This document shows, in pieces, positions 5,135 through 42,374 of a stretch of 64,000 bases of DNA (positions within the stretch are counted from its first letter, which is position 1; the number at the start of each line of letters is the position of its first letter). The notes under the pieces were generated by a model, which was not told the origin of the DNA, ran no database searches, and worked only from the letters and a program-made list of their open reading frames with translations. The position numbers and the translations under genes are program-made. The stretch comes from a virus. Location of the stretch: positions 1 through 64,000 of the IMG/VR virus record IMGVR_UViG_3300045125_000085. The stretch is one strand, 5' to 3'.

Positions 5135-5168
5135 CAAAAAAAGAGCACCGACTAGGGTGCTCTTTTTG
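5135..5168 (-). terminator. Intrinsic terminator (AGAGCACC stem with T-tract)
   Basis: AAAAAAAGAGCACC-GACTA-GGGTGCTCTTTTT; related copies near 6238 and 41776. Confidence 0.75.
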
Positions 5169-5200
5169 GCCTACACTGAGTATAGGCCATAGAGGAGCCT

Positions 5201-5419
5201 CTAATAGGCCCTCCAACTTATTAACATGTGCATCTGTGGTATATACACCACAGAGCCATATTTCACGCCCTTGTCATCCTTGACATAGTGTCTTCCATTG
5301 TAAAAATCACTCCATGCGATCTTAGCGCTTCCTTGCGCCGTTTCCCCCTTCTTACAACGTAATCCATGTTCGTCAGCTATTACGCTGACGTTTCCTTCGA
5401 TAGCAACAGTCGTGCTCAT
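5201..5419 (-). CDS. Small orphan early protein (about 72 aa, MSTTVAIEG...)
   Basis: GGAGG RBS; flanked by its own promoter, leader hairpin and terminator. Confidence 0.6.
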   Translation of the reverse strand: MSTTVAIEGNVSVIADEHGLRCKKGETAQGSAKIAWSDFYNGRHYVKDDKGVKYGSVVYIPQMHMLISWRAY

Positions 5420-5486
5420 GATACACCTCCTCGGGCATACGTTAACTCTACCTACCGAGCAGATAGGCAGAGCTGAAAGGGTTTGC

Positions 5487-5546
5487 GATCTCAGCAGTAG
5501 GCTAAGATCATCTTTACTATATGTGTTTATAAAAATCTGCACTTTA
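5487..5546 (-). promoter_or_regulatory. Early promoter plus conserved 5' leader hairpin
   Basis: CATATAGTAAAGATGAT. The 25 bp GATCTCAGCAGTAGGCTAAGATCAT is identical to 42266-42290. Confidence 0.75.
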
Positions 5547-5612
5547 CGCGATTCTATTCTAGTCGACATAGAGCCTAGAGCCTAAAATGCTCTAGGCTCT
5601 TATGCTGTTTAA

Positions 5613-6148
5613 TCACTCTACTACCATTGCTGCCATTTCTCTAACGATGCTTTTAATGGCTTACGTAGATTATCCATAGATAACTGACTAGCGGCTTCAC
5701 ATATCCCATCACCGATTAAAGCATTGTAACGCTTTGCCAGATCCTCTATCCCGCTCGCTGTCACCCACGTGATCGCATCGAACTTATGTGGCTCTAATAT
5801 CCTAGGCTGTTTACCACGTGCTATATCGGCTTTATAAAAACCAATAGTGATTCTCGATCTGCGTAATCTCTGGGAAGTACGCTTTCTCTAAAGCATCTGC
5901 TTTACGAGTCTTGCGATACTCCATAATCTGCGTTAGTCCTACTAAATCCACACCTAGCTCTTCCTGGGGTACTTCTCTACGTAATCCTTGCTCAGGTGTC
6001 TCGCCCTCATCAAGTCCCACCACCTGGCAACAATAACACACGCCAATCCTTGCCTCACTTTTGTTTCTAAAGTTCCTGATCATGACCAAGAAGGTCTTAT
6101 CACTACACGTGTAAGGAAAACCCGTGTGCGTTCATTCTGCACCAACAT
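5613..6148 (-). CDS. Nudix hydrolase (frameshifted)
   Basis: Nudix box G-LDEGETPEQGLRREV-EELG. Confidence 0.8.
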
Positions 6149-6301
6149 GACATCACCACTTATACTGAATATACAGAAACGATCATAGCTCACACCATGA
6201 TCATCCGTAGTATGTGGGATCTAGTACATCTGCAATGAAAAAAAAGAGCACCCACTAGGAGTGCTCTGTAAAGGCATCGAGCTCCAGCGAGGTAGTGATC
6301 T

Positions 6302-8353
6302 TTAAGCTGGTGGTGGGATCACAGCTTCAGGTAAGATAAAGGCATCCAAGATACAGTCCGGTCGATCTAGCTGATAGAAGCTCCTAGGATCCATGATCAA
6401 CTTCATCTGCTCTTCGTAAGCATACGCTGTCGATAGACTACGATTCCGCAAGGTAGCTCTCGCTACGCCTAAGGATGCAGTCGTAGAGTTCCTAGCTAGT
6501 CCGTACAGATCGTTACCACCATCGGTGATCATCGAGGCATAGATGATCACTTCTAAGAGTGCTATGTTCACATTCAGCTTAGTATTCACTAAGTTAAATA
6601 GATCTACCAGCGTACGTATCGGTGAATCAGGTCGATTACGCTCAGTCAAGTCTTTGATCCTAGACTCGATCAGAGTAGCGATCTGACCTGAGTGCTGTGA
6701 GTATGAATACTCCATAGCCGGTAACACGAATAAAGGCAACTCATGGTTCCAGTCAGATAAGTCAAACACTAGGTTAAACTTACTGTCAGATACCCACTTG
6801 TACAGCTTACAGTAGTGTAAGAAGTCATGACTCATGATAGCCATCCTACCGTGCTGACTGATCTGCATCTACGTCCTATAGCGTGTACCACGTTCCTCTA
6901 ACTCAGTACTATGCTATCTATGCTACTGATGCGTGTCAAGTCTAAGTCTTCTATCCTAGGCGCTATGTGTACATCAGTCAAATTACTGACTTCAGTCTGT
7001 GCTACTAGTAGTCTAGGCTTACTGTTCAGTGCCTCCTTCTTTAGATAGTAAGCATTATTCTTGCCTTTAGTAACGAAGAACTGCGATGTGACTTCATTTA
7101 GCAGGGAGTGGTTCTGCTTTAGAGCTCGCATCCAGATGCTTATTTGACAGCACTGATTGCGTGGTCTGCCTAGTGATAGAGGCTGCACAGTTATGACCTA
7201 CATTAGTCTCGTGGTTGAAGTTATCAGCCATTTGACCGAAGCAGACTTTACATACGGCATGTGGATCAGCATCCCTGCAAGTCAGTACGCTCCTTATCAG
7301 GATAGTCTGACCGACTAGATCAGTATCGCTCACTTTGAGTATCTTTAACTGCTCACCGACTGGATTACCTTTATCGTCCGTAGTCAGGTAGTACTTACCT
7401 TCTAAGAAAGTAAGATCGCCTGGGTATACGTCATTACCCGTCTTTGTGGAGGTTTGACTATCCAGCGTACGTAGTTAGTACTGCCACAATCACCATCAGG
7501 ATAATAGTGCTGCTGTTTAGTCTCTGGATCCTCTACAGATACGTCTTCGTAGTGGATGCGTTCTACTACCATAGCTAGCAGCTGTAAGCGTCTAGCAAAG
7601 TACTCAGCATCCTGTAATGGCGACTCAGCGAAGTAATGACTCTTTGCAGCCGAACGTGACTCTGCTGCAAAAGTCGTACAGACTCCGCATCCCTTGCGTA
7701 TAACTACGCAGTACTGGATAGGTGAAGATGTGTCCATCTACCTCAGTAGGAAAGCCACGTGGGCCTACGCACTGCAGTACTTGGTTTTGGTTCACCATCT
7801 GTGAGCGGGTAGCACGAGCGAGGGCATTATCACCTAGATCTTCAGCTTTATTGAGCGAAGTGATCAAGGCTTGATAGGCTCTATCTATAGACTCCTGACT
7901 ATCGTTGAGTCCTGCTAGTACAGGAGCTATCTCTGGATAGTCTATCACCTGCAGACAGTCGAGTATGTCTACCGATACTACGAAAGCTTCACCTCTATGA
8001 CTGAGATCTACATAGAGCTCATTGACGATCTCGTACACCATCTTAACGAGAGGATCTCTTTGCTGCGGCGTCTTGAGCCGATAGCACTCTACTACGTCCC
8101 AAAACACACTACCGACTAGTTTGATATGCGTCTTAGCTGAGATCACCTGTCCGTTAAGGATCACATCTAAGTGATGGTGCGGTAAGATAGGCGTCTGCGG
8201 ATACTCTCTATGCATCCGCCAGAAGTAAGAGCTATAGCCAGTCGCTCGATAGTTCGTACTAATCACAGTGCCGTCATCGAACTTAAGGTTAAAGTCACCT
8301 ACCAGCAAGTCCCATAGCTCTGCCGTACTGTAATTGTAATAGATATCTAGCAC
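6302..8353 (-). CDS. Non-virion RNA polymerase beta' C-terminal subunit (phiKZ gp74-like); frameshifted
   Basis: Q-VGPRG, ESRSAAKS...YFARRLQL bridge-helix region, RSVLTC...VCKVCFG Zn site, TQSVLSNKH trigger-loop region. Confidence 0.9.
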
Positions 8354-8368
8354 TCAAGGTCTTTACAG

Positions 8369-10603
8369 TCATGCATCACCTCCCATAGGGGTCATTTTAC
8401 CTGCAGGTCTATAGACCATACGCCAGCCACCACACATCGCTACATGACGTACTAGACTCAGCGGCTTAGATCCACCGAGCGGTATCTGCTGCCTATCTAT
8501 AGCAACTGGTATATTAGTCGGTCTATCAGCAGTCAAAATATTCCACACTATGTGTCTATGCGTAGTAGGGCTAGTATTCCTATCCATCATCTCAGCTATG
8601 GCTTCCTTACCACAGTAGCTGACGAAGATCCTACCTTCAGACTCACCGATAGTACGTACTGGACTATTACGATGTGGAAACGCGTACTTCTGCGCTCTCG
8701 GTCACGGGTGATAAGATACCGAAGTGCTGTAGTGTACCTGCAAGCTACTGACGATAAAGCGTCCGTGATTTTATCTAGTAGCATCATGTACAAAGGCGCT
8801 ATGCGTACGGGATACTGAGTCACTACTCTCTGACCACTATAACCTACATAGCTGACAGGGCCATAAGTAGGATTGTACTCCTGCTGTAGTCGTCTAGCGA
8901 CATCAGCGATCTCATACTCATGATCCGTAGGGTAGAATATCAGCCCACCATTTTCCACCAGTCTAGCTAGATGGTCTAGCTTATCATCTATAGATAGTCC
9001 ACTATAGTGCTGATATTGCAAAGGCGATACGGTCTGATAAAAGCCTAAGCGATAGCGATAGGCATTCTCTACCCTAGATGCATCAGTCTTATAGATCTCC
9101 TTAATAGCAGCTAAGGCACTCGCGTAAGGCTGCTTCTCTAAGCCTAGCATACTCCTGACTGTCTTAGTCACATCGCGCTCACACGGCACCGAAGAACATC
9201 TCATACAGTCGGCCTAAGTTCATACGACTGAAATGTCGTCTCTGCACCTACGACGATATCCGCTCGATTACCTGCTGCATCTACCGGCATGTTCTCAGGC
9301 TTCTCTATGTAACAAATCACACCTTTACCACCTTGACAACACGTCAGCTTATAGCCGATCGTAGGCTGTACCGTATACTCGATAGTAAACTCGACTCTAT
9401 AGTCGTCGAGCGGTACTTTTCTATACACTAGGTTAAGCCTGCTATTAGTCTTACCGCAAGGTTTACCTAAGACGGCCATGGCTTCTACTAACAGTCTGTG
9501 GAGTTCAGGCTTGAGTACGATCTCAGCTTCACCATACTTCTTCCTACGTTCGCTACGTATATGCTCGTACGCATCCAATAGCTCACGGTAAAAGCGTTTC
9601 AGGGCACGAGTGTATTTATTCATACCGCTCATGACTCCTTCAGGCGTAGGGCTATTCTCAGCCTCATCGTGGTAGATCTTGATATCGACGATTTTGCCTG
9701 ACTTGATCTCTATAGGCTGCCCATTCTTCTCACCCTGCATGACTGTACCTGGCCCTCTGACATAGATGGCGTCGTCGAAAATAAAATCAGGCGACATGCA
9801 GTCTGTGATACTCGTGAGTACCGGTCCTAGATCTTGATCATACCTACGCAGCATCGCTAAGATCCCATCTTCACGGATCAGCTGACCTATCTCTGGGAAA
9901 GGCTGGTAACGATTAGCATGGCCGTAGAGGTTTAAAGGAAAGGTACTTGTACCAAACTCCACGACGCGCTTCTCATACACCTTGAAACGTAAACGTGGCA
10001 ACACATCTTCACTGATCAAGATGCCGTCCTCAGCTACAGCTGGATGGGACATCCCGGCTACGTTCAACTCTATACCGAACTTATAGCCGCCGTACTCACT
10101 GATAGAAGGACTATTAGCAAAGATGGTATCTTTCTCTATATAGTCAGTACCCGCTACTTTACTTAATCCAGGTAAAAGTCGTTTGAACTCAGGCGTCATC
10201 TTGTACTCAAAGCCAAAGTACTGATGAAATGACGCAGTGTCTAGGTATGACTAAGCAGCCTATCTCAGGCATACAGTTGACATTAGGATCTCTTATTACC
10301 TCTTCGTAGATCACTACAGTCTCTGGGTTCTCAGGGATGGCATCTATATCGATACCAGCAGGATAGCGGTCTATCACACGTAGCACTCGCATATCGCATG
10401 GTGCTTTCGTTGAATACGTAATCACCTAACCTGCACTCTACACCTGTCTGAAAGCGTTTCTCAGTACTGCCTTCTATGACAAGATTCTGTGAGATATGCG
10501 AACCATACATCACAGCACGACTAGCACTATTCGTACCAGTCGCAAAATTAGTTGCCTGAATACCTAATAATTCAGGATGTAGCTCACTGGGTTTATTGCT
10601 CAT
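8369..10603 (-). CDS. Non-virion RNA polymerase beta subunit (phiKZ gp71-73-like); frameshifted
   Basis: NSASRAVM..SH, EDGILIS, GYKL...GGKGVI, MP-D--G--ADI motifs. Confidence 0.9.
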
Positions 10604-10635
10604 ATCTACCTCTTATGACGTTAAGCCTTGATTAG

Positions 10636-10652
10636 CTCATTTTTAGTATATG
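10636..10652 (-). promoter_or_regulatory. Early promoter motif upstream of nvRNAP beta
   Basis: CATATACTAAAAATGAG. Confidence 0.7.
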
Positions 10653-10672
10653 TAACACAAACAGGTTCCATC

Positions 10673-11012
10673 ATGCGCTTACATTCTTTAGCTGCCTCTA
10701 CCGGTGAAACTACTTATTACACCGATGGTTATCGCTGGTTGATCGAGAGTCATTATAGTCAGTTTATCAAACAAGGCTATTTGACATGTGTACAACATAG
10801 ACGGCCAGATGGCCGGTAAGTATCACGGTGATCTATACGGCTTACTCGATGCACTACGTATCCCTAAGCAGCATCATTGGTCGGTCTTGTTTTTCAATCG
10901 TTATCGCCATCCGGCTGATTACGATCAGTCTACTAGCATGTTGTTAATTCCAGATGCTAGTTATCTGGACATATTGCTGCAGAGTCTATAAGACGCGTAA
11001 ACGTCTTATCTA
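10673..11012 (+). CDS. Conserved small phiKZ-like protein (frameshifted)
   Basis: Joined ORFs MRLHSLAAS...YRWLIESH and KYHGDLYGLL...W.VLFFN...IPD; divergent from the RNAP genes. Confidence 0.55.
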
Positions 11013-12420: not shown

Positions 12421-12427
12421 GTTGACC

Positions 12428-15554: not shown

Positions 15555-15582
15555 GTATCTACCTCTTGCTGTATGACTGATG

Positions 15583-16077
15583 TCACTTCTTGTATAGCTG
15601 CATTGCCAGCTTTAGATTATCATGGTCTTTAGGCAGACCACGCCGCCGTACCATCATCCGGTACCAAGATACTAGCGCTTCAGGTGTATCTACTTTTACA
15701 CCGTCGATGACTTGGGTAGGCTGCTTTATTTTACCTTTGACCTCTGCAAAGAGCACAGGGTCGTAAAAGAGCTCACACCAGTCACCGATTTGTAAGCGTG
15801 GTTCGTTATTGAGCTCGGAGCTACTTAAACGAAGTCTACGATTACGTGCTATCATTTCCAAAGCTTCCTTGCTATCCACCATGCCGTCCACATCACCGGC
15901 AGTCTCCTTAGCACCGTAGATCGCTAAGGCAGATCCTGCTGATACGGCTATATGCTTGAGCTCATCTTCATTGAACTCTTTACGCATACGTGTAAGTATT
16001 TGCTCACCCGTCATAGGTTGGGCTGCTGCTAGCATCTCTAACGAGAGATTAAACCAGCTCTTTCTTTGGAAAAACAT
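15583..16077 (-). CDS. Pol-beta superfamily nucleotidyltransferase-like protein
   Basis: AGSAL-YG----GDVD (GS...DxD) and C-terminal R--PKD-D motif. Confidence 0.6.
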   Translation of the reverse strand: MFFQRKSWFNLSLEMLAAAQPMTGEQILTRMRKEFNEDELKHIAVSAGSALAIYGAKETAGDVDGMVDSKEALEMIARNRRLRLSSSELNNEPRLQIGDWCELFYDPVLFAEVKGKIKQPTQVIDGVKVDTPEALVSWYRMMVRRRGLPKDHDNLKLAMQLYKK

Positions 16078-16165
16078 GCTAAGTCTCCTAAGTGTCGACC
16101 GACCACGTAGAGCAGTCGGTCGAGTCAGTCCGATACGACATCGCTTCGATACCTACAAGAGTAGG

Positions 16166-16182
16166 CTCATTATTAGTATATG
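16166..16182 (-). promoter_or_regulatory. Early promoter motif for the NTase-gp68-picA-gp70 unit
   Basis: CATATACTAATAATGAG. Confidence 0.7.
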
Positions 16183-16216
16183 TCGTCATATTTGGCTGGA
16201 CGTGCGCATACTTAGG

Positions 16217-16916
16217 TTAAAACGGCACATCGTCATCGAACATCAAGCCACCTTCTTTACTCGGTGCATCTGAATCAAAGCCACTGGCTTTACGGGCAGG
16301 TGGTTGATTCGCAGGAGTATTGTTTTGACCACGTGATACAGGTGGTGGTGGGTTCAGCAAATAGTTCGCTAACAGATGTCCGTAGACTTGACGCAGCAGA
16401 TTCAGATGCGCCATAGCGGCTAAGCGTGATCCTTCTGCTTCAGTAATGACGCTGCCATCATTGTGATAGATTTTGTGCCATTCCGAGACTTGGAACGTAA
16501 ACTTGATCTTCGGTCTATTCTCAGCCGTCACACTCAGCCAGATCAGCTGGTTAGCATCTTTACCTATCCATACTTGCGAGTTCAGGATACGATCACCCGT
16601 AGGCTTATTATCCTCATACCGCGTCGTATAGCAATCTATCGCTTGTTTGATTTCATCCTTAGTACGGATGACGCTTTCAAACACTGTCAGAAAGATGTCA
16701 AACATCTCAGGCGACAGTCCTGCATAAATGATGCCTCTACCGATCGTATCGTTAGGGTCATTAGTAAAGACCGTGATACGCGGATTACCATCTCTAAAGC
16801 CGAATGAGAGCTTAGAGCGTACATTCTGCATACCAGGTGCAGGTGTGAACATCTGCAATCTTACAAAGTCTAAGATCTTAGTCGGGCCAGAGATCGCGTG
16901 GGGTCGTGTCAGTCAT
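16217..16916 (-). CDS. chmC: ChmC-like nucleus-associated nucleic-acid-binding protein (phiKZ gp67-like); 5' frameshift
   Basis: NPRITVFTNDPND motif, disordered C-terminal tail, position upstream of the gp68-like gene. Confidence 0.65.
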
Positions 16917-22966: not shown

Positions 22967-23015
22967 TGGTTTTATACGCATCCACATACAGTGTGTGGTA
23001 CTACTAAAAAAGTAC

Positions 23016-23058
23016 GGCATAAAGCCGGGAGAGCCCGATGAGGCTCTCCCGGCTATGC
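23016..23058 (-). terminator. Hairpin terminator after chmA
   Basis: AGCCGGGAGAGCC-loop-GGCTCTCCCGGCT flanked by GCATA/TATGC. Confidence 0.8.
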
Positions 23059-24970: not shown

Positions 24971-25087
24971 GTACTCCTATTTAGTACGGGTGATTTTCAG
25001 AATGTATGTCCTTCGCATGCATGCAGATAGGTCGCCTCCCGCGCCTATTTGAACCCATTCTGAGTGTAGGTTCATAATTAGTATATG
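24971..25087 (-). promoter_or_regulatory. chmA early promoter and structured 5' UTR
   Basis: CATATACTAATTATGAA at 25071-25087; hairpins TGAACC/GGTTCA and ATAGG..CCTAT; RBS hairpin at 24971-24993. Confidence 0.7.
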
Positions 25088-25144
25088 AGTCCAAAATGTG
25101 CTCGAATCGTCATATCGACGACATACTGCAGCATAGACCTAGTC

Positions 25145-27750: not shown

Positions 27751-27793
27751 GCATAGAGCGTGCGTAGGGTATCTAGCCCTACGCACGCTATGC
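27751..27793. terminator. Bidirectional hairpin between convergent genes
   Basis: GCATA..AGCGTGCGTAGGG-loop-CCCTACGCACGCTATGC. Confidence 0.8.
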
Positions 27794-30460: not shown

Positions 30461-30538
30461 GATGGTAACTCCATAATGGTAAAGGTCTCATAGTGAGATA
30501 CCAGAGCCTGATTAATTATCTGTGCTGAGAAAAAAAAT

Positions 30539-30580
30539 AGAGCATAAGAGAGGGAGAGCCATCTGGCTCTCCCTCTATGC
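30539..30580 (-). repeat. Terminator-type direct repeat, copy 1
   Basis: AGAGCATAAGAGAGGGAGAGCCATCTGGCTCTCC...; near-identical to 31511-31551. Confidence 0.8.
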
Positions 30581-30583
30581 CGA

Positions 30584-31019
30584 TTATGCGAAGATACGCC
30601 GCCATCCTTTCTTCGGTTTAATTAACTGCTCCCTCGCATACCGAGGGAGATATTGCACCTGCGGCCAGATGCAATTCGGATGGAGTACTTTGCAATACTC
30701 CCCTGTAGCTAACTCCACCCCCTCTTCGTAGTACATCCTTGAAAGATTCTCTACCGTGCGTCCTTTCATGGTGATGGGGATAGCCTCCTCAGCATACCAA
30801 CCACTATTAGTGGCTCTAATCCCACGCAACCACGTGAGGTTTTCTTGTCCGTCCTTGATGCGGGCCACGCCCATCCCTCTCCACTCCCCATTAGGGAGGC
30901 GGTACAGTCCGATGAAGAGAAACCTGCCTCTTGGGCACAAAGCCCTTTGGATCGTATCTGACGCCCAAGTATACCTTCGTATACCTGACCCATACACTCT
31001 AACAGTTCTTGCTTGTTCA
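30584..31019 (-). CDS. Orphan early cassette protein (5' frameshift)
   Basis: GGAGG RBS with MNKQELLE; own promoter at 31100-31116 and own terminator. Confidence 0.6.
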
Positions 31020-31099
31020 TAATACCTCCTACGGGCAATGTGCTAGATAGTCTGAACTTTCTACCTAGCTTTATTAATAAAAATTATTGAGCGCGTTTG

Positions 31100-31116
31100 C
31101 TCATTATTACTATATG
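31100..31116 (-). promoter_or_regulatory. Early promoter motif
   Basis: CATATAGTAATAATGAG. Confidence 0.7.
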
Positions 31117-31247
31117 GGTTTATAAAAAAATACAATCGGCATAATAGCCAGGTGTTACCCTGGCCTACTTTTAGCTTTAAAAAGAACCGCTTTAACATCG
31201 TGTAAATGCTAAAGCGGCCAAAGTCATCACAAGAGGAGATTGCAACC

Positions 31248-31497: not shown

Positions 31498-31510
31498 AGC
31501 AAAAAAAGAA

Positions 31511-31551
31511 AGAGCATAAGAGAGGGAGAGCCATCAGGCTCTCCTCTCTGC
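31511..31551 (-). repeat. Terminator-type direct repeat, copy 2
   Basis: Near-identical to 30539-30580. Confidence 0.8.
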
Positions 31552-31553
31552 TG

Positions 31554-32048
31554 TTAAACCAGAATGATGTTTATCACTCTGGGCAAGATTTGGCAGAACA
31601 ATTGCTTTACCCACAGTACCGGCCGTACTCTAGCCGGGTAATACGTGATTACCCGGCTGCATGCCTTAAATATTGTAAAAATAGCGACTGACTTGCAGCC
31701 GCCGCCTAAAAGACCGACCGCATGTCTGTCAGCCTCTAACTCCAACCGCACTTTTTCCCTAAGTGTAGCCTTTGGGCCGATCCATCGGCCCTTCATCGTA
31801 ATCCTCTCATGCTGTAGCTTATATCGCGCATGGCCTGACTCATGCGCGATGATGAATCTGACTTCCTTGTCGGTAAAACCTTCCATGGCTCTTTGGGACA
31901 AAATAATATACCTTGTCCAAAAGGTATATCCGGCGCCACCCATGGCATCCAGGGCTGAAGCCTCTGGATGATCGGGAAGGAGAATGACTACCATGTCTTT
32001 TTTGCCGAGCTCCTCGGCTATTTCAAGAATTTTTTCTACACTGCTCAT
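31554..32048 (-). CDS. M48/M56-like zinc metallopeptidase
   Basis: E-RFIIAHESGH (HExxH) and ELEADRHA (ExxAD); GGAGG RBS before MSSVE. Confidence 0.75.
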   Translation of the reverse strand: MSSVEKILEIAEELGKKDMVVILLPDHPEASALDAMGGAGYTFWTRYIILSQRAMEGFTDKEVRFIIAHESGHARYKLQHERITMKGRWIGPKATLREKVRLELEADRHAVGLLGGGCKSVAIFTIFKACSRVITYYPARVRPVLWVKQLFCQILPRVINIILV

Positions 32049-32147
32049 AAACCACCTCCATCGGTGCACTTTCTACCGACCGAGCAGATCAGTAGAGGTT
32101 GATTGAAAAATCGATCATTCGCTTTTAGCAGAAACCTCCAGCGATGG

Positions 32148-32187
32148 ATCACTCTTAGTATATGGGTTTATAAAAATCTGCACTTCA
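32148..32187 (-). promoter_or_regulatory. Early promoter with extended upstream element
   Basis: AAGTGCAGATTTTTATAAACCCATATACTAAGAGTGAT; the upstream part nearly matches 5518-5546. Confidence 0.75.
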
Positions 32188-32254
32188 CTAAAGCTAAAAA
32201 ATAAAAGTCGGCATATCGCCCTATGAGCTCATAGGCTCATAGGGCGATATGCAG

Positions 32255-34914: not shown

Positions 34915-35288
34915 ATTCTGCGAACCAAGATGAGTTGCTGATACGTCACGAGTAACTTAACGCGCGTACCATTACTGAACGTGAGCCTATGGCTATCCAG
35001 CCAGGCCGCCATGTGGAGTGTGATCTTATCACGTATAGGTGGAGTGTGATAGATACACTTATAGATGTCGTGGGTAAAGTGGTGAGTGATCTCGATGTAC
35101 TGACCACGCTGCCGGAGTACTTCTATTAAAGCTTCAGTGACTATCCAGTCGAAAGCGAGTTCTATTTGCTCTTCTGATACGGGAGCTGGTAGATGCTGCC
35201 AGAAGCAGTCCTGTATAGTAGGTAGCAATATGGAGCTGATAATAGTGAGATCAGCGATGAAAATCGAGTCAGTGCGGTGAGTGACCAT
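34911..35288 (-). CDS. Hypothetical protein
   Basis: Intact ORF with RBS. Confidence 0.55.
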   Translation of the reverse strand: MVTHRTDSIFIADLTIISSILLPTIQDCFWQHLPAPVSEEQIELAFDWIVTEALIEVLRQRGQYIEITHHFTHDIYKCIYHTPPIRDKITLHMAAWLDSHRLTFSNGTRVKLLVTYQQLILVRRI

Positions 35289-35426: not shown

Positions 35427-36404
35427 TTACAAGATTAGGCCGTGCTCATTCAGCTCTTCATCGAGCTGGATGCGTTTGGTCACAGCACTGGTGACGTGCT
35501 CATCTATATCCTTGATGACCTTGGTCAAGCGTTCCAGTACGGATGGGAAGTATCCTGCTACTGTCACGATGTGGAGTGGCAGATCGACAGTGATAGCATC
35601 CTTGAGCTTATCATCGATATAACCAGTAGCTCTGTAACCGACTGGGATGCCGATGGATGCATCAGTTTGAGCGTCTGAGATCGACACAGCGGAGACTACG
35701 CTATGACCACGTGCTAACTCTACCGTCTTGGAGTAAAACTCCAGGTGGGTCAGCTGAGGATCTACAGCCGTCACTTTCTGATAGTTCAGGAAGTTAGACA
35801 GATCTGCACTATCCAACTCGTGATTCTGACCACTAAAGATAGCAGCCAGCAGTACGATGATGGTCTGGACCTTCTGGTCTACAGACCCTCTAGGAGTAGA
35901 GCTACTATTTTCATAGTAGACCATATTCACCGGCTTTTCGATCTTACGGGCAGTAGCCTCATAGCCCTTCAACGTCTTCGAGGTATTCTCTACCTCGATA
36001 CGACTATCAGTACTACCGATCGTAATGACGATAGTCTGCACATCCTTCTTCAGCAACTCACCTGCTATGATCGGTCCGATGACTGAGCCTGAGCCACCTG
36101 ATGCTGAATGTACAATTACATTCAAGTCACCAGGCTTATAGCGGTGTAAGATTTCCTTAGAGCGTTCAGCGATCGCACCTGCATTGCTGTCACGCTTCTT
36201 ACCACTACCGTCTCTATCTTCGATGAGGTATACTCGCTCATCGTTGATATCCAAGTTAGCCCGCTTAAAGTTACTAGCGGATGTATCTATAAAGACGGGT
36301 CTAAATGTAGCAAACCCGTCCGACGGTTTATCCGCATGCCGCATGAGCTGGCTGACGATGTTGATGCCTGCACCACCGGCTGCGTAAATATTCATTTGGT
36401 TCAT
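35427..36404 (-). CDS. phuZ: PhuZ phage tubulin
   Basis: GGAGIN, IDTS-SN, GSGK-R, SGGSGS tubulin signature loop, ELD-AD; acidic C-terminal tail. Confidence 0.95.
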   Translation of the reverse strand: MNQMNIYAAGGAGINIVSQLMRHADKPSDGFATFRPVFIDTSASNFKRANLDINDERVYLIEDRDGSGKKRDSNAGAIAERSKEILHRYKPGDLNVIVHSASGGSGSVIGPIIAGELLKKDVQTIVITIGSTDSRIEVENTSKTLKGYEATARKIEKPVNMVYYENSSSTPRGSVDQKVQTIIVLLAAIFSGQNHELDSADLSNFLNYQKVTAVDPQLTHLEFYSKTVELARGHSVVSAVSISDAQTDASIGIPVGYRATGYIDDKLKDAITVDLPLHIVTVAGYFPSVLERLTKVIKDIDEHVTSAVTKRIQLDEELNEHGLIL

Positions 36405-36931: not shown

Positions 36932-37051
36932 ACTTTTCCTCCATAGGTAATTGAACACATTTAAGCTGCACAGGCAGCTTATAGGATTTTCAATCCTAGT
37001 AATAGGATCTTTGATCCTCAAAGAGCACTAGTGGCGTACGGGTCGGCTAAG

Positions 37052-37068
37052 CTCATGTTTAGTATATA
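37052..37068 (-). promoter_or_regulatory. Early promoter motif for the SLT-phuZ unit
   Basis: TATATACTAAACATGAG. Confidence 0.65.
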
Positions 37069-37174
37069 CGGCTAAAATACGCTCGACTCGTAGTCATTGA
37101 GATATAAACCGTACAGCAAAAAGAAAGAGCGCATAGAGGGAGTGGTATAGACCACTCCCTCTAGCTGTTAGCTG

Positions 37175-37490
37175 TTAATCACCATAAAAAATTTTATTCT
37201 TAACAACATGTCTATTTAGCAGACCGTATTTAAACAACGTCTCTTCAATCAGCTTTTCTAAAACTCTATATGCTAGAGTACCTTCTTTACTATTATCAAC
37301 AATAGTAAAGACAAAATCAACAACCATGTCAGCCTTTCTCTCTAAAGAAATTTCATCATTTGTTGGATCTAAAACAGCCATTGCAGCTTCTTTAGTAAGA
37401 CTAATTCTATCCATATAGGCCATTATCATCGCTTCCATGCCGCTAGAAGATACCTGCTCCTCTATTACTTCCTCTACGTTTCTTCCTCCA
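37175..37490 (-). CDS. Small hypothetical protein
   Basis: AT-rich ORF followed by a hairpin terminator; start may be at 37438 or about 37491. Confidence 0.45.
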
Positions 37491-37676
37491 TCACCGCCTC
37501 TTTGCGGCGGTACTTCTATAGTAGGCTAATATAGTCTCTACCATCGACGGCTTGATAGCCTGATTAGCAGGCGTATTCACTACGCTTGCTGTACCGAGGT
37601 TAAGTCCATCATTAGACTCATCCAGTTGCACTACACGTTGCACTACACCGTTGTTCTTAACAGCCATTTTATCCAC
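37491..37676 (-). CDS. Small hypothetical protein
   Basis: 61-aa ORF below a promoter-like motif near 37748. Confidence 0.4.
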   Translation of the reverse strand: MDKMAVKNNGVVQRVVQLDESNDGLNLGTASVVNTPANQAIKPSMVETILAYYRSTAAKRR

Positions 37677-37679
37677 CTC

Positions 37680-38320
37680 TATTAGTGATTATTACAAAGT
37701 TACTATCGGCTACATTAGCTTCGTATTGAAAGAGTACGTAGGCTAAGATCACCACTAGTATTTATAACTATAATTAACTCCACTATAAGCTCTATCTAAT
37801 CTTTGCCTAGCACTCGCACTATCGTGCTCATGCACTGCGGCGATAGCTCTCTAGCTTTATTTAATCTCTATTGCACTCGACTACGTCTCATGCGCTGCGT
37901 TAATTGCTAATTTAACATTATCTACTAGCTTGTGTAAAAAATACTGGCACTACATATATTTTGACTGACTTAAATAGCAGGAGGGCGATGGAGTGACTGA
38001 ATAGGAACGAAGGAGACCGACACATACCTGGAAGCAATAGAGCTGCGTGCATATAGCTGACTGCCTACCTATACTAAAAGAAAAGAATAGATAAGCAATC
38101 TAGCCTCATACATACTAGCACTATCCACTACCAAACTAACAATAGATTAGGTACTATAGCTATCTGTTATACTACTCTATCTAGCACTACAGATGCGAAG
38201 CAGTATAAGTATTGGGGGCGTAGCCCCCACTAGTAGTACGATAAAAAAATAGATAAACTATATATCTTTATTAATAAAGATATATTCCTTTAAAGTAAAA
38301 ATAGCTAAGGAGCTAGAGAG
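37680..38320. other. Long non-coding region, candidate replication origin
   Basis: No ORF; direct repeat, GNA mini-hairpins, perfect 26-bp AT palindrome and a local GC-skew switch. Confidence 0.4.
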
Positions 38321-38884
38321 ATGACTACTATCTTAGATTTACAGCCTGAGAGTGAGCAGATTGTAGAGAATAAAGCAGATAGCAAAGAGACAGTATCTCA
38401 GAATACTGTCTCTACTAGTGCTGATGATGATGAGAAAAGTAATAGTGCTAATAAGAGTAAAGATACCATAGTGCTAGATGGACCTTTATCCACTATTTAT
38501 ACTCAAGCGTTACAGATCGCTTATAGTAAAAAAGCTATAGACGCAGAGCATGAGTCAGATATGACGAGTGCAGTCGAAAAGATGGCTATAGATGCGAGTA
38601 TGATGGGCGTGATGGAGGTGATCGATGAGACTGAGAGAGGTAGTGCTAAGCCTTTGTATGTCTATGTGACTGATGATGAGCACTTGGGTGATGGGGCTAC
38701 TGGGGAGGTGTTTGATACTTTGCGGGTGAGTGCTGAGAGTGGGAGGTATAGTGGGGTGTGGTTTTGTACTGAGGATGGGTATAAGTTGGGGCGGAGTCAG
38801 GTGCTGTTGAGTGATTTTGTGTTGGGGTGTGGGGGTAGGGTCTACTATAGCAAAGAGAGCCTGTGGCGGGCTCTAGGAGTCTGA
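38321..38884 (+). CDS. Conserved phiKZ-like hypothetical protein
   Basis: I-LDGPLS-IYT-AL---Y-K motif; AGGAG RBS. Confidence 0.65.
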   Translation: MTTILDLQPESEQIVENKADSKETVSQNTVSTSADDDEKSNSANKSKDTIVLDGPLSTIYTQALQIAYSKKAIDAEHESDMTSAVEKMAIDASMMGVMEVIDETERGSAKPLYVYVTDDEHLGDGATGEVFDTLRVSAESGRYSGVWFCTEDGYKLGRSQVLLSDFVLGCGGRVYYSKESLWRALGV

Positions 38885-38885
38885 T

Positions 38886-40112
38886 ATGGCTGGGTTAAAA
38901 GAGGTATTTGATCCTATCTTTGCTAAAGTGAAGTTTAATAGGAGCTTGAGTCATCAGCAGTATTTGTTTCATACTAGCTTTATGAATAAGAATGAGGAGC
39001 ACTTATTGTTTTTGAGTGGGAAGTTGACGGGAGTGCACTTTATTCGGTTTACGCCTAAGGAGTTTGATATCTTTTATAACGATATGCTGGATATCGATGT
39101 AGGTGTGATAAAAGCTGCGGTGAGTACTGTGGAGGCTATCGATCCTCGGTGGGTGGTAGCGAGTGATAGTTTTAATTTAGTCTGTATGTACATGGTGCAT
39201 AGGTGGCTGACTACTCCGGCTTTAGATAATAAAGCTAGGGAGCAGGCAGCTATTAGTGCAGCTTTGATCTTTTTTTATAGATCTGCTGCGGCTATGTTAA
39301 ATGAGTGGTTTAGATATCCGGTCGATGTAGCTTTGGCTGAGGCTACTTATGCTAATTTGAGTAATCGTTATTTGATACGGAAGTTAGAGAGTTGGCAGGA
39401 GGTGCTGATGTATCGAGCTGTGGAGCTGGTGAAGGGCGATAGTGTGCATAGGCGTACCTTTGAGACGTTTAATGACGATTACGCTGTGGTGCAGCTCGTG
39501 AACGATGCTAGAGGGCGTATGGCGGATATCATCAAGAACATCTATGCGGAGATGATGCGTACTCATCAGCGAGGAGAGCGATTACAGACTAGTAAAGATA
39601 CTACGTTGAACATGGATGGAGCTGAAATTTTAAAGGATAAAGTACATGGTCTGACGGATTATACGCAGTACGTGCTGGGGATAATGCATGATGAGGCTAG
39701 TTTCATCAAGAGTGAGTTGATCGATATAGTGAGTAAGATCATGAGCACTATGCAGGTGAGGGGATTTAAGACTAGTCTGGAATGGATGAGTGAGTACTGT
39801 GGGCATCAGCAGTATGGCGTGATCGAGGAGTTTATTAAGTTAGTGTTGATACATAGCTATCATTACTTCTTGACGCATGATAGTGCGGTGATGAATAGTC
39901 GGGATATATCTGGATTGCTAGGACGGTTGAAGAACATTTATGTCAGTAGTCGCAGTAGTGATGCTGATTTGATGAAGCTGAGAGAGCTAGGGAGTGAGAT
40001 AGTAGGTCATGCTACAGGTAAGACTAATGAGCAGACTATGGCGGCTATACGTACTGGATTGATGTTATACATCGTAGTACGGGCTTATACTAAACATCAT
40101 TACAGTGGGTAA
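38886..40112 (+). CDS. Conserved Chimalliviridae protein (putative virion structural protein)
   Basis: Intact 408 aa; KN-EH--F--G-L-GV--RF, Y--SRS, RTG--LY---R motifs. Confidence 0.7.
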   Translation: MAGLKEVFDPIFAKVKFNRSLSHQQYLFHTSFMNKNEEHLLFLSGKLTGVHFIRFTPKEFDIFYNDMLDIDVGVIKAAVSTVEAIDPRWVVASDSFNLVCMYMVHRWLTTPALDNKAREQAAISAALIFFYRSAAAMLNEWFRYPVDVALAEATYANLSNRYLIRKLESWQEVLMYRAVELVKGDSVHRRTFETFNDDYAVVQLVNDARGRMADIIKNIYAEMMRTHQRGERLQTSKDTTLNMDGAEILKDKVHGLTDYTQYVLGIMHDEASFIKSELIDIVSKIMSTMQVRGFKTSLEWMSEYCGHQQYGVIEEFIKLVLIHSYHYFLTHDSAVMNSRDISGLLGRLKNIYVSSRSSDADLMKLRELGSEIVGHATGKTNEQTMAAIRTGLMLYIVVRAYTKHHYSG

Positions 40113-40115
40113 GAG

Positions 40116-40550
40116 ATGAAGACGGCGATAGAGTTGAGTGAGTTGAATTATGAGTCTTGGTGTGGTACTAGATGGTTATGCTTGAAAGAGTGTAAGAGCT
40201 TGAGTACGGAGCGGTTGTTGTGGTTGTTGGGATTGATGAAGGATGGCGATGTGGAGATCGTGATACCTAGTCATTGCGTATGGGGTACACAGATAGAGAT
40301 AAGACGATGGTTAAGGAGAGAATACTACCTGATGGCTAAGCGGCATAGCGTAGTAGAATTAGTACATTTACACCATACTACCGAGACTGCTATGGGGGAT
40401 GGGATACCTGTGCTGATGGGAGAGACTCATGATGAGTGGGATGAGGTGCTGATGGCGTGGGCGAGTCATATCGCTCGTAAGGTGAAGTTTATAATCATGG
40501 TGAGGCGTGTATGTCGAGAGTCTACCGGATGCGAGTGCCAGATAGGGTGA
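40116..40550 (+). CDS. Hypothetical protein
   Basis: Intact ORF within the operon. Confidence 0.45.
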   Translation: MKTAIELSELNYESWCGTRWLCLKECKSLSTERLLWLLGLMKDGDVEIVIPSHCVWGTQIEIRRWLRREYYLMAKRHSVVELVHLHHTTETAMGDGIPVLMGETHDEWDEVLMAWASHIARKVKFIIMVRRVCRESTGCECQIG

Positions 40551-41233
40551 TACCTCTTGTAGATGAGGTAGAGGTCGCATTAGAGGCCGATCAGTACGGG
40601 TTAAAGGATAATTACCTCTACCACTACAGCTTAGAGAAATACGAGTGTCTATTGACCTTAGAGGAGCAATGGAATCGAAAGATCAAAGTGCCTACTAAGG
40701 AAGACTTAGATTACAATACACAGCGTAAAGTCTTTCGGTATGATGAATTTCCGTATAGTCAGCACTTGAGTTTTCTATTAGATCCATTACCAGTAGACAT
40801 TATTGCTAAATTTAAAGGTGGTAATAATAAGCTGTATAATGCTAAGTCGTGTTGGGAGTACAAAATAGATATAGCTGCTTTTAAGGATAATATCAACTAC
40901 TACATGCTAGCTGAGAATGATGTAAATAATTTCTTTGCTTATAATCTTTGGTTAGATGTAGAGTTTCCTGGTAAGCACTTTATGTACTTTAAGACTAGAG
41001 ACTTAATTAATAAGCTAGCTGGTAATATCGGCTACGATTACTTGAGTCTTAGGAGTGCAGTGTTTAAATATAAAGGTAGGACACGTGAGGCTTTTAAGGA
41101 GCTGACTGAGAGCGATGAGTTTGAGTGGGTGAAGACGAAAGGCATGTATGCACCGACGGTACCGCATCTAATGGCGTATCCTAAGATCGGTGTGATCGAG
41201 TATGCTGATGTGAAAAAAATAAAGCTACTGTGA
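40511..41233 (+). CDS. Hypothetical phage protein (possible head protein with ALE propeptide)
   Basis: VALE near the N-terminus; LYHYS...HLSF...YA--VPH. Confidence 0.55.
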   Translation: MSRVYRMRVPDRVIPLVDEVEVALEADQYGLKDNYLYHYSLEKYECLLTLEEQWNRKIKVPTKEDLDYNTQRKVFRYDEFPYSQHLSFLLDPLPVDIIAKFKGGNNKLYNAKSCWEYKIDIAAFKDNINYYMLAENDVNNFFAYNLWLDVEFPGKHFMYFKTRDLINKLAGNIGYDYLSLRSAVFKYKGRTREAFKELTESDEFEWVKTKGMYAPTVPHLMAYPKIGVIEYADVKKIKLL

Positions 41234-41246
41234 AAAGGAAAGGGAG

Positions 41247-41284
41247 ATATAGCCCTGAGAGCACTAAGGCTCTCAGGGCTATAT
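41247..41284. terminator. Bidirectional hairpin
   Basis: ATATAGCCCTGAGAGC-loop-GCTCTCAGGGCTATAT. Confidence 0.8.
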
Positions 41285-41293
41285 GACGGCTAT

Positions 41294-41674
41294 TCAAACC
41301 ACATGTCTATTTCTGTTACTGGTGTCAGCTACTTCATTATCTTCACCGAGATCTTCTATCTGGCAAGCTAAGATCCAGAAGCTCGTCAGATCCTCAGGTA
41401 GTCTAGGATCGTTAGGTACAGCATAACTGTAGAGATTATTGCTAGTCATCCCTACTGTGAACTGAAAGTCATCAGCGACCTCTATGCAGTCGTGGCTGTC
41501 GATGAGCTTGACGAGCACATCAGGACGAGCCTTGATGTGAGCTTTATGGACGCGCTTAATAGCATCCTCACTGTTACAGATCATCGCCTTTTTGCTTTGG
41601 TTTTGCTTGATGTGATAATCAGCATTAACATTGAAGCTAAGACCCAGAATGATAAAAGCGAATAAAGTGCGCAT
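41294..41674 (-). CDS. Secreted/periplasmic hypothetical protein
   Basis: Signal peptide MRTLFAFIILGLSFNVNA; AGGAG RBS. Confidence 0.6.
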   Translation of the reverse strand: MRTLFAFIILGLSFNVNADYHIKQNQSKKAMICNSEDAIKRVHKAHIKARPDVLVKLIDSHDCIEVADDFQFTVGMTSNNLYSYAVPNDPRLPEDLTSFWILACQIEDLGEDNEVADTSNRNRHVV

Positions 41675-41847
41675 ATGTGTTTCTCCTAATTAGAGAGTTG
41701 TTGATAAAGGTACTAGACGGCTAGGTCCAAACACAATATATAGGCTTCTATTATCCTATGGATTTAAGCAGTAGAGAAAAAAGAGCACCGGTGAGGGTGC
41801 TCTTTGAAGGGAGCTTCATGCTCCAGCGAAGGTAACGCTATGAAAAA

Positions 41848-42195
41848 CTATTTACTGGTTGTTACCAGGATGAAGCGGAACTCTGCGCCTTCCGGCAGTA
41901 CTGTGGTGCCCTCAGGAAGACGTGGCCCATTGTACTGGGCCACCAGGAGGATATCGTCATGTTCCAGCTTGATGTTGACCCGATTGCTCGGGATATTTGC
42001 ACCAAGCAGATTGCTCAAGATGACCGCAGTGTCGGGATGACCGACACCGCTAACGAAGCGACCATCTGCGATCTCTGCACCAACGATGCTAGCTGCATCG
42101 CTAGCATCGATGTCGCGGTACGACAGTGTACCGCCATCAAAGCTAGCAGAGATCATGGAGAAGGAAAATGCGTTGGCGATGTAGAACTTGCTCAT
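41848..42195 (-). CDS. acrIII-1: AcrIII-1 family (DUF1874/STIV B116/YddF-like) cA4 ring nuclease
   Basis: Y-ANAFS--M, S-VGH-DTA (catalytic His), NRV-IKL, Q---RLPEG motifs; 115 aa; GGAGG RBS. Confidence 0.88.
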   Translation of the reverse strand: MSKFYIANAFSFSMISASFDGGTLSYRDIDASDAASIVGAEIADGRFVSGVGHPDTAVILSNLLGANIPSNRVNIKLEHDDILLVAQYNGPRLPEGTTVLPEGAEFRFILVTTSK

Positions 42196-42265
42196 AGTTA
42201 CCTCCAAAGGGTAAAAGCTAAGCTATGTAGATAGAGCATATCCACATAGCTGGAAAGGGTGTAGT

Positions 42266-42302
42266 GATCTCAGCAGTAGGCTAAGATCATAAGTAATATG
42301 TA
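42266..42302 (-). promoter_or_regulatory. Early promoter plus conserved leader hairpin of the acr cassette
   Basis: TACATATTACTTATGAT; 25 bp identical to 5487-5511. Confidence 0.7.
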
Positions 42303-42374
42303 TAGCTATATTTCTTTTCAATCCAAGTTTAAAGCTATACGGCATATCGGGCAGAATGATCTGCCCGATAGTAG

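What the first reader, a model, noticed from the sequence alone, without database searches (positions are those of the whole stretch)
5135..42310. Standardised plug-in early expression cassettes carrying anti-defence-type cargo
Unrelated small genes are wrapped in shared parts. The cassettes at 5135-5546 and 41776-42302 share an identical 25-bp leader hairpin (5487-5511 = 42266-42290), an AGCTG(G)AAAGGGT spacer, a second hairpin containing GAGCA, and an AAAAAAGAGCACC..GGGTGCTCTTT terminator. The cassettes at 30539-31130 and 31511-32187 share a terminator of about 40 bp, and the promoters at 1974, 5507 and 32148 share the upstream element AAGTGCA(G/A)ATTTTTA. This suggests a repeat-mediated system for capturing or swapping genes. 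One cargo is AcrIII-1, so the others are candidate new anti-defence proteins (inference).
Basis: partly seen in the sequence, partly recalled or inferred. Interest (0 to 1): 0.8.

Follow-up and report, generated by a model that had tools for sequence, protein, structure and literature searches.

The report
Modular early-gene cassettes in jumbo phage
An uncultured nucleus-forming giant phage wraps many small, mostly unknown accessory genes (one a likely anti-CRISPR ring nuclease) in the same promoter, folded RNA leader and terminators; these units are the parts of the genome that differ from its only available relative, much like the known shuffling cassettes of T4-type phages.

Summary
The repeats are real and far beyond chance. 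The window is the first 64 kb of a 144-kb contig of an uncultured chimallivirus (PhuZ, chimallin, split RNA polymerases). The shared parts are the phage's own expression punctuation:
- About 23-25 early promoters of the phiKZ type, all on the minus strand.
- A roughly 95-nt structured leader: a 5' hairpin, a pyrimidine linker, a covarying hairpin whose loop matches the start codon region, and a strong ribosome-binding site.
- Two terminator families.

The two named cassettes are two of at least 8 strong leader copies (15 in all). Cargo is mostly ORFans. One is a DUF1874/AcrIII-1 homologue with the catalytic His.

Against the one relative available (about 70% nt identity), 11 of 13 early promoters lie in the eight large non-homologous gaps. 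Two clean presence/absence events start at a conserved promoter. Promoter subclass and leader subclass assort independently.

This supports PeSL- or moron-like modular shuffling by homologous recombination. It does not support a dedicated capture machine: no recombinase was found. Timing, transcription start sites and anti-defence roles of other cargo remain inferred. Other windows of this same genome were already noted for the same leader.

The parts
5512..5549 (-). Early promoter of cassette A (alpha subclass: upstream AAGTGCAGATTTTTA plus CATATAGTAA core)
   Evidence: Repeat family D1; weight-matrix score 49.7; coordinates.
5420..5511 (-). Structured 5' leader of cassette A: P1 5487-5509, pyrimidine linker 5474-5486, P2 5445-5473 (loop 5455-5463), SD 5424-5430
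   Evidence: Fold z = -3.5; covariance-model hit of 95.5 bits; P2 covariation; loop pairs with GAGCA of the start region.
5201..5419 (-). Cargo A, 72 aa ORFan
   Evidence: No Pfam or PHROG hit. Only weak similarity to repeat units of SpaA-type giant proteins. No counterpart in relative G001.
5136..5167 (-). Class I intrinsic terminator (GAGCACC-N6-GGTGCTC plus T-run), directly abutting the next promoter at 5084-5126
42291..42330 (-). Early promoter of cassette B (beta subclass: GGATTGAAAAG...CATATTAC); an orthologous beta promoter exists in G001
42196..42290 (-). Structured 5' leader of cassette B: P1 42266-42288, linker 42252-42265, P2 42221-42251, SD 42199-42205
   Evidence: Fold z = -5.4; 87.6 bits.
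41848..42195 (-). Cargo B, 115 aa DUF1874/AcrIII-1-like putative cA4 ring nuclease
   Evidence: PF08960 E = 9e-12. PDB matches 2j6b, 2j85, 2x4i and 6scf. H53 aligns with the His that is Ala in 6scf, and RLPEG is kept. GC is 53% against 45.7% for the genome. Absent from G001.
41777..41805 (-). Class I terminator of cassette B, followed by a second early promoter (41716-41758) that drives the conserved gene 41294-41674
32049..32190 (-). Alpha promoter (32153-32185) plus leader (P2 32072-32097, loop CUGCUCG pairs with UGAGCAG of the start region)
   Evidence: The promoter is conserved at the orthologous G001 site; the downstream sequence is not.
31554..32048 (-). Cargo, 164 aa, HExxH (weak Peptidase_M48 hit); ORFan
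31501..31549 (-). Class II terminator (long palindromic hairpin, then TTATGCTC, then T-run)
31021..31142 (-). Alpha promoter (31105-31130) plus weaker leader copy (P2 31042-31069, loop GUUCA pairs with UGAAC of the start region)
   Evidence: (25.9 bits).
30584..31020 (-). Cargo read in two frames (apparent frameshift). It is the only gap cargo with a homologue at the same G001 site (30% aa).
30530..30576 (-). Class II terminator, 93% identical to 31502-31544
1886..2016 (-). Alpha promoter plus full leader copy (subclass b); no intact ORF follows
   Evidence: 77.3 bits.
15583..16208 (-). Early promoter, two-hairpin leader and 164-aa cargo. The whole unit is absent from G001, where a promoter abuts the conserved downstream ribosome-binding site.
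6190..6268 (-). Early promoter (6190-6232) directly preceded by a class I terminator variant (6240-6268)
37042..37780 (-). Two further early promoters: 37042-37084 drives a conserved lytic transglycosylase; 37738-37780 drives small ORFs that are not conserved
25061..25103 (-). Same promoter class in front of the chimallin-like gene (23824-24966); supports the early assignment
10626..10668 (-). Same promoter class in front of the RNA polymerase beta-like gene (9201-10603)

Best explanation
The shared parts are the phage's own early-expression punctuation.

(1) A promoter for the virion-packaged multisubunit RNA polymerase. It has the core CATATA(C/G)TAA or CATATTAC, then about 4 nt, then GA(T/G)C as the probable +1. 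Two upstream subclasses exist.

(2) A roughly 95-nt leader RNA. Its first bases form a 5'-terminal hairpin, likely protecting against 5'-end-dependent decay. A pyrimidine linker follows. A second hairpin has a loop that pairs with U-G of the start codon plus codon 2. A small hairpin holds the strong GGAGGU ribosome-binding site. Together these probably gate translation.

(3) Two terminator families.

Each set brackets one small gene, so the units behave like morons. They are the flexible part of the genome. Because the parts recur as direct repeats, homologous recombination between them (within and between co-infecting genomes) inserts, deletes and re-pairs promoter, leader, cargo and terminator modules, as PeSL cassettes do in T4-type phages. 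This shuffling is a by-product of the repeats, not the work of a dedicated machine.

Shown: the repeats, the RNA covariation, the mosaicism, the cargo turnover, and the AcrIII-1 homology.

Inferred: the polymerase used, early timing, +1, the roles of the hairpins, and recombination as the cause.
For: Phage identity: PhuZ, chimallin-like protein, RNA polymerase beta and DNA polymerase.

Promoter:
- 12 matches against 1.1 expected in the window.
- 23-25 copies in the contig, all on the minus strand.
- It precedes the chimallin-like and RNA polymerase genes.
- It resembles predicted early promoters of the phiKZ group (TATATTAC; PMC7058600 Table 2; PMC7598289).
- It is not flagged as sigma-70-like.

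5' hairpin: 17 of 23 predicted transcripts have a hairpin starting exactly at the G of GA(U/G)C.

Leader:
- All 11 copies fold alike.
- The covariance model finds 8 strong and 7 weaker copies.
- P2 is 95% paired, with compensatory changes in 10 of 10 pairs; slid controls give 25-41%.
- The loop is complementary to the start region in 13 of 15 copies, in one register, and covaries with codon 2.

Turnover:
- 11 of 13 early promoters fall in the eight non-homologous gaps over 700 bp, which make up 21% of the length compared with G001.
- Gap ORFs have no homologue in the other phage, with one exception.
- Two clean indels begin at a conserved promoter.

Mosaicism:
- All four promoter-subclass by leader-subclass combinations occur.
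- Promoter and leader distances are uncorrelated (Mantel r = -0.13).
- A's leader is nearest to other copies, but its terminator is nearest to B's.

Foreign cargo: GC of 53% and 31% against 45.7% for the genome.
Against: - No transcript data exist. The polymerase, +1 and timing rest on analogy.
- Only one relative (about 70% nt identity, 19% complete) could be compared. Fast divergence of small genes could mimic replacement at some sites, and the direction of each indel is unknown.
- Identical tracts are 25 nt or less, which is marginal for homologous recombination.
- Mosaicism could come from convergence or gene conversion under functional constraint.
- The leader is absent from the relative's 50 kb, so it cannot yet be shown to travel between genomes.
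- The contig has many apparent frameshifts, so some cargo calls are unreliable.
Confidence: 0.6

Rival explanations
1. Pure regulatory standardisation. The parts are similar only because one polymerase, one decay system and one translation system select for them. Gene turnover at these sites is ordinary illegitimate recombination and decay of dispensable genes, and the repeats play no part in it.
For: - The same promoter drives core genes.
- The 5' arm of P1 coincides with the conserved initially transcribed bases, and those bases are also conserved in G001.
- The alpha and beta upstream subclasses exist in both phages, so they are functional classes.
- Identical tracts are short.
- No recombinase was found.
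Against: - All four subclass combinations occur and the histories of adjacent modules are uncorrelated.
- The insertion at 41777-42290 is exactly one unit of leader, cargo, terminator and promoter next to a conserved promoter.
- Turnover is concentrated at these units.
- The PeSL precedent shows that such repeats do recombine (PMC2839356).
Confidence: 0.28
2. A dedicated cassette-capture platform (integron-like). A site-specific enzyme would act on the palindromic 3' elements or the leader hairpins to insert and excise cassettes.
For: - Cassettes end in conserved palindromes, a layout reminiscent of attC sites.
- Cassettes occur in tandem arrays of 2-3.
Against: - No tyrosine or serine recombinase and no HNH nuclease in 144 kb, though the record is only 49% complete.
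- The palindromes also follow core genes and occur on both strands, as bidirectional terminators would.
- The hairpin-TATGC-T-run signature is conserved in G001 with different stems.
Confidence: 0.05
3. The promoters are host sigma-70 early promoters, as in T4, so the cassettes are literal PeSLs.
For: A TATACT or TATAGT hexamer resembles a -10 box.
Against: - There is no -35 match, and the sites are not flagged by the sigma-70 scan.
- Conservation extends from about -30 through +12, unlike sigma-70 sites.
- phiKZ-type phages transcribe independently of the host polymerase (PMC7598289, PMC10914365).
Confidence: 0.07

Closest known systems
PeSL (promoter-early stem-loop) cassettes of T4-type phages (Arbiol et al. 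2010, PMC2839356; Comeau et al. 2014, PMC4122927)
   Same: - A composite terminator plus strong early promoter plus Shine-Dalgarno sequence, repeated dozens of times.
- Placed before ORFans in variable regions.
- Associated with whole-gene indels and replacements between relatives.
   Different: - The promoter here is not sigma-70 type; it is probably read by the virion RNA polymerase.
- A roughly 95-nt structured leader with a start-codon-pairing loop is added.
- Breakpoints inside the repeats and mini-circles are not demonstrated here.
Early (virion RNA polymerase) promoters of phiKZ-like and AR9-like jumbo phages (PMC7598289, PMC8244752, PMC5312081, PMC7058600)
   Same: - An AT-rich motif of about 10 nt near -10, specific to each phage.
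- About 28-41 copies, overrepresented before early operons.
- The beta subclass contains TATATTAC.
   Different: - The conserved block here runs into the transcript (GAUCUUAGCC), where it forms the 5' arm of a hairpin.
- phiKZ 5' UTRs are mostly 31-40 nt (PMC8244752) against about 95 nt here.
Phage morons (Juhala et al. 2000, as cited in PMC10914365)
   Same: A single gene with its own promoter and terminator sits between conserved genes, with atypical composition (cassette B: 53% GC against 45.7%).
   Different: The parts are standardised across many units and include a shared structured leader.
Regulatory-sequence-guided discovery of anti-defence genes in archaeal viruses (PMC11065993)
   Same: A conserved early regulatory sequence precedes known Acrs and many unknown small genes. 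It is used as guilt by association.
   Different: A different virus group and a different motif. Here the promoter also drives core genes, so the association is weaker.
ompA-type 5' UTR stabilisers (own knowledge: a 5'-terminal stem-loop protects E. coli mRNA from RNase E-dependent decay)
   Same: A 5'-terminal hairpin, a single-stranded segment, a second hairpin, and then the ribosome-binding site.
   Different: No sequence relation. Loop pairing with the start codon is not a feature of ompA.

Membership tests
phiKZ-type virion-RNAP early promoter | AT-rich conserved motif of about 10 nt, overrepresented upstream of genes and strand-consistent | tested here: met
   12 matches against 1.1 expected; 23-25 copies, all on the minus strand.
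phiKZ-type virion-RNAP early promoter | Resembles the group consensus (TATATTAC and 201phi2-1-type extensions) | tested here: met
   The beta subclass contains CATATTAC. The alpha subclass has CATATACTAA with an upstream T-run (PMC7058600 Table 2).
phiKZ-type virion-RNAP early promoter | Precedes hallmark early genes in a phage that encodes multisubunit RNA polymerases | tested here: met
   It lies before the chimallin-like and RNA polymerase beta genes.
phiKZ-type virion-RNAP early promoter | Mapped transcription start, early and host-independent transcription | not testable with these tools
   No RNA data. The +1 is inferred from hairpins that start at G in 17 of 23 copies.
PeSL cassettes | Composite of a terminator stem-loop abutting an early promoter, then SD and start codon | tested here: met
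   The terminator T-run lies 10-25 nt before the promoter at 2006, 5126, 6232, 32180, 117603, 118509 and 137130.
PeSL cassettes | Sigma-70 consensus promoter | tested here: not met
   No sigma-70-type site at the repeats.
PeSL cassettes | Located before ORFans in variable regions | tested here: met
   11 of 13 promoters lie in large non-homologous gaps; the cargo has no family hits.
PeSL cassettes | Indel or replacement breakpoints inside the repeats; mini-circles | tested here: inconclusive
   Two indels start at a conserved promoter, but the relative is too diverged for base-level breakpoints. Circles are not testable.
AcrIII-1 / DUF1874 ring nuclease | DUF1874 (STIV B116-like) domain | tested here: met
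   PF08960 at 45.4 bits against a cut-off of 26; PDB 2j6b, 2j85, 2x4i and 6scf.
AcrIII-1 / DUF1874 ring nuclease | Catalytic His and conserved R..E motif | tested here: met
   H53 aligns with the position that is His in 2x4i and Ala in the 6scf complex. RLPEG aligns with RLEEG. The residue roles come from my own knowledge of Athukoralage et al. 2020.
AcrIII-1 / DUF1874 ring nuclease | cA4 cleavage and inhibition of type III CRISPR | not testable with these tools
   Needs biochemistry or an infection assay.
Integron-like cassette system | Site-specific recombinase plus a recombination site at each cassette | tested here: not met
   No PF00589, PF00239 or PF01844 match in 144 kb; the record is only 49% complete.
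Rfam RNA families | Leader matches a curated family | tested here: not met
   No relevant hit at E <= 1.

The most novel reading that the evidence does not exclude
The leader-bounded units are a self-standardising gene-recruitment platform of a nucleus-forming phage. New counter-defence genes would be slotted in by recombination at the invariant transcript start (the promoter/P1 arm), at the SD-AUG-codon-2 end, and at the terminators. The P2 loop would then be re-tuned to each cargo's second codon. The leader would mark a rapidly exchanging anti-defence repertoire, and its copies could serve as a search handle for new inhibitors.
Probability: 0.2. Interest if true: 0.8.

Novelty: new variant of a known kind. 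Interest (0 to 1): 0.6.

Why it matters
Nucleus-forming phages evade DNA-targeting immunity, and their remaining weak point is exported mRNA. A set of early, individually terminated, fast-turning-over cassettes, one of them carrying a likely cA4 ring nuclease, is where counter-defences against RNA-sensing systems would be expected.

The shared promoter and leader give a sequence handle for listing such genes in this lineage. They also give an expression module that could be tested for phage engineering.

Finding PeSL-like modular shuffling with a non-sigma-70 promoter would extend a mechanism known only from T4-type phages to a second, unrelated group of large phages.

The leader itself (5' hairpin plus a loop that pairs with the start codon) is an undescribed cis-regulatory design. 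Compensatory mutations would test it directly.

Tried and rejected
- Megablast of 14 kb against GenBank phages gave no match. The best cultured relative by DNA polymerase is only 41% identical.
- Rfam gave nothing relevant.
- I scanned IMG/VR and GTDB genomes for the leader start, the promoter and the SD-start block. Context inspection and the covariance model showed only chance hits or the one known relative.
- The metagenome scan with PhuZ returned the same relative. A scan with a 473-aa protein from the far end of the contig returned nothing.
- Sigma-70 reading of the promoters: rejected.
- Integron-like or homing reading: no integrase, resolvase or HNH, and no RecA either, in an incomplete record.
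- Cargo A: the ESM Atlas gave only sub-threshold leads. The exhaustive search found only repeat-protein similarity.
- HExxH cargo: no homologues. The single-sequence AlphaFold model had pLDDT 39 and was unusable.
- I first read the TATGC after the hairpins as a separate motif. It is partly the outer arm of a longer palindrome, but a TTATGCC-N-T-run tail is conserved in G001 with different stems. This is unexplained.
- A claim that leader-type cassettes are significantly more lineage-specific than other early units: dropped. The result depends on how weak copies are classed (5 of 6 against 2 of 7; one-sided p about 0.08 by hand).


Full report
CONTEXT

The window is the first 64 kb of a single 144,006-bp virus record that CheckV rates 49% complete. 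Profile hits show a nucleus-forming jumbo phage:
- tubulin PhuZ (35427-36404, minus strand);
- a chimallin-like shell protein (23824-24966, minus strand);
- RNA polymerase beta pieces (9201-10603);
- a family B DNA polymerase (27798-29924).

It has no near relative among cultured phages. Megablast finds nothing, and the best DNA polymerase match is 41% identical.

One relative could be read. This is an IMG/VR contig of 50.5 kb (G001), colinear with window 1-45 kb at about 70% nucleotide identity.

OBSERVATION

- The 23-nt hairpin at 5487-5509 equals 42266-42288, where shuffles give none even at three mismatches.
- The promoter core occurs 12 times against 1.1 expected, 11 of them on the minus strand.
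- A weight matrix built from the eight window copies finds 23-25 sites in the contig, all on the minus strand.

So the two named cassettes are members of a genome-wide family.

WHAT THE PARTS ARE

Promoter.
- Conservation runs from an upstream element through CATATA(C/G)TAA or CATATTAC to GA(T/G)C(T)TAGCC.
- There are two upstream subclasses. Alpha has GTGCAGATTTTTA(T/C)AA. Beta has GGATTGAAAAG...TATAGCTATA. Both also occur in G001, the beta one at an orthologous site.
- The motif precedes the chimallin-like and RNA polymerase genes.
- It resembles the predicted early promoters of the phiKZ group (PMC7058600 Table 2). It also fits the rule that each RNA-polymerase-encoding jumbo phage has its own AT-rich early motif near -10 (PMC7598289; AR9: PMC5312081).
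- It is not sigma-70-like.

I therefore read it as the promoter of the virion RNA polymerase. This is an inference, because there are no RNA data.

Leader.
- From the G of GA(U/G)C, 17 of 23 predicted transcripts begin with a hairpin whose first paired base is that G. This points to it as +1.
- Eleven copies share one architecture: P1 at the 5' end, a pyrimidine linker of 12-16 nt, a P2 of 10-13 bp, a small hairpin around the GGAGGU ribosome-binding site, and then AUG.
- A covariance model finds 8 strong copies (77-110 bits) and 7 weaker ones in the contig, all on the minus strand. It finds none in G001.
- P2 is 95% paired, with compensatory changes in all 10 pairs. Slid controls give 25-41%.
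- The 5' arm of P1 is the conserved transcript start. Three different 3' arms pair with it.

The P2 loop is complementary to U-G of the start codon plus codon 2 in 13 of 15 copies, always in the same register. The pairing covaries: GCUC with AGC, GUUCA with AAC, and CACA with UGC. The mean Watson-Crick run is 4.9 nt against 3.2 for random targets.

Rfam has no such family.

Terminators.
- Class I is GAGCACC-N6-GGTGCTC plus a T-run (5136-5167, 41777-41805, and a variant at 6240-6268).
- Class II is a long palindrome with GCATA/TATGC outer arms and often GAGAGC/GCTCTC inner arms, followed by a T-run some 10 nt later. My scan listed 78 hairpin-plus-TATGC sites over both strands of the contig; at least 15 of them clearly carry this palindrome-plus-T-run form.
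- The 30530/31502 pair is a subset of class II.
- Terminators often abut the next promoter.

CARGO

Cassette B encodes a DUF1874 protein. PF08960 gives E = 9e-12, and there are PDB matches including 2x4i and 6scf. H53 aligns with the residue that is His in 2x4i and Ala in the 6scf complex, and RLPEG is kept.
- Its nearest homologues are 52% identical or less.
- Its GC is 53% against 45.7% for the genome.
- Type III CRISPR is known to act on nucleus-forming phages through their mRNA (bioRxiv 10.1101/2022.06.20.496707), so a cA4 ring nuclease makes biological sense here.

Other cargo:
- Cassette A encodes a 72-aa ORFan.
- The cargo at 31554-32048 has an HExxH motif but no homologues. It shares that stretch with the cargo behind the leader at 137130.
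- Eight further cargo ORFs have no Pfam or PHROG hit.
- All-against-all BLASTP among cargo finds nothing significant.
- The same promoter also drives a lytic transglycosylase and a secreted 126-aa protein, both conserved in G001.

So an anti-defence role for the unknowns is only a hypothesis. The precedent is PMC11065993.

TURNOVER AND MOSAICISM

In a tblastx comparison with G001, eight non-homologous gaps longer than 700 bp cover 21% of the length. They contain 11 of the 13 early promoters.
- ORFs in the gaps have no homologue anywhere in the other phage's available sequence. The exception is the cargo at 30584-31020.
- At 15555-16328, G001 has a promoter directly before the conserved ribosome-binding site. 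The window has promoter, leader and a 164-aa gene there.
- At 41651-42925, G001 has a beta promoter directly before the orthologue of 41294-41674. The window has the same promoter type, then the leader, the AcrIII-1 gene, a class I terminator and a second promoter, before that gene. The extra DNA is one unit running from promoter to promoter. This is what a single crossover with a promoter-bearing circle, or an unequal exchange between promoters, would produce.

Among the eight strong leader copies, all four combinations of promoter subclass and leader subclass occur. Promoter and leader distances are uncorrelated (Mantel r = -0.13). A's leader is closest to the copies at 137130 and 117603, while its terminator is closest to B's.

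This is the pattern expected from recombination at the invariant junctions. It matches the PeSL model of T4-type phages (PMC2839356, PMC4122927).

LIMITS
- The relative is distant and fragmentary, and closer ones could not be fetched.
- The direction of each indel is unknown.
- Identical tracts are 25 nt or less.
- The contig carries apparent frameshifts: an orthologue of a 767-aa G001 protein is spread over at least five frame changes, and several cargo are affected.
- No recombinase was found in the available half of the genome.

VERDICT

These are standardised early transcription units around fast-turning-over accessory genes, and module shuffling is likely. A dedicated capture system and anti-defence roles for the unknown cargo are not shown.

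It is a new variant of known kinds: PeSL- or moron-like cassettes, here built on a phiKZ-type early promoter, plus an undescribed structured leader.

Noticed in passing
window 42926-45029 (+): The orthologue of a single 767-aa ORF of relative G001 is spread over at least five frame changes in the window, although the DNA aligns colinearly. It is either a decaying pseudogene or local sequencing error.
   Followed up: partly
window 9201-10603 (-) and 30584-31020 (-); contig 117090-117483 and 136433-137009: The RNA polymerase beta-like gene and several cassette cargo genes are split between frames, at least one at an A-run. Short ORFs after leaders may therefore be artefacts of homopolymer errors.
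   Followed up: partly
window 1527-1560, 23005-23054, 27755-27789, 32206-32250, 45177-45219, 55790-55820, 56472-56503 and many sites beyond 64 kb: A family of roughly 40-bp palindromes (GCATAG-CCCWGAGAGC-loop-GCTCTCWGGG-CTATGC) can be read on both strands and lies mostly between genes. In both this phage and G001, hairpins with different stems are followed by TTATGC(C/T), about 6 nt, and then a T-run. That spacing is too long for a canonical intrinsic terminator. TATG is the phiKZ late-promoter core (PMC7598289), so this could be a combined terminator and late promoter.
   Followed up: partly
window 37175-37438 (-): An 87-aa ORF with 31% GC (GC3 23%) sits in a 45.7% GC genome, inside a variable gap. 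It is either a foreign gene or not a gene.
   Followed up: no
window 38321-41233 (+): A plus-strand gene block has very strong positive GC skew (0.23-0.35), embedded among minus-strand early units. Its 3' part (40116-41413) is not conserved in G001.
   Followed up: no
contig 69679-70744 (beyond the window): About seven tandem copies of a roughly 177-bp unit, each ending in the same hairpin plus T-run.
   Followed up: no
window 5201-5419 (-): The 72-aa cargo of cassette A matches repeat units of giant repeat proteins: 26 stretches in a 5830-aa protein, and SpaA/prealbumin-fold repeats in another. It may be a single beta-sandwich repeat used as a stand-alone protein.
   Followed up: partly
G001 (L037-L039) 9039, 16784, 37485: Three early units of the relative share a different pre-start block (CACTACAAGAGGT before the ATG). 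Each lineage therefore seems to standardise its own translation-initiation region.
   Followed up: no
window 35013-35064: Two tandem 26-nt direct repeats (77% identical) lie inside the gene downstream of PhuZ.
   Followed up: no
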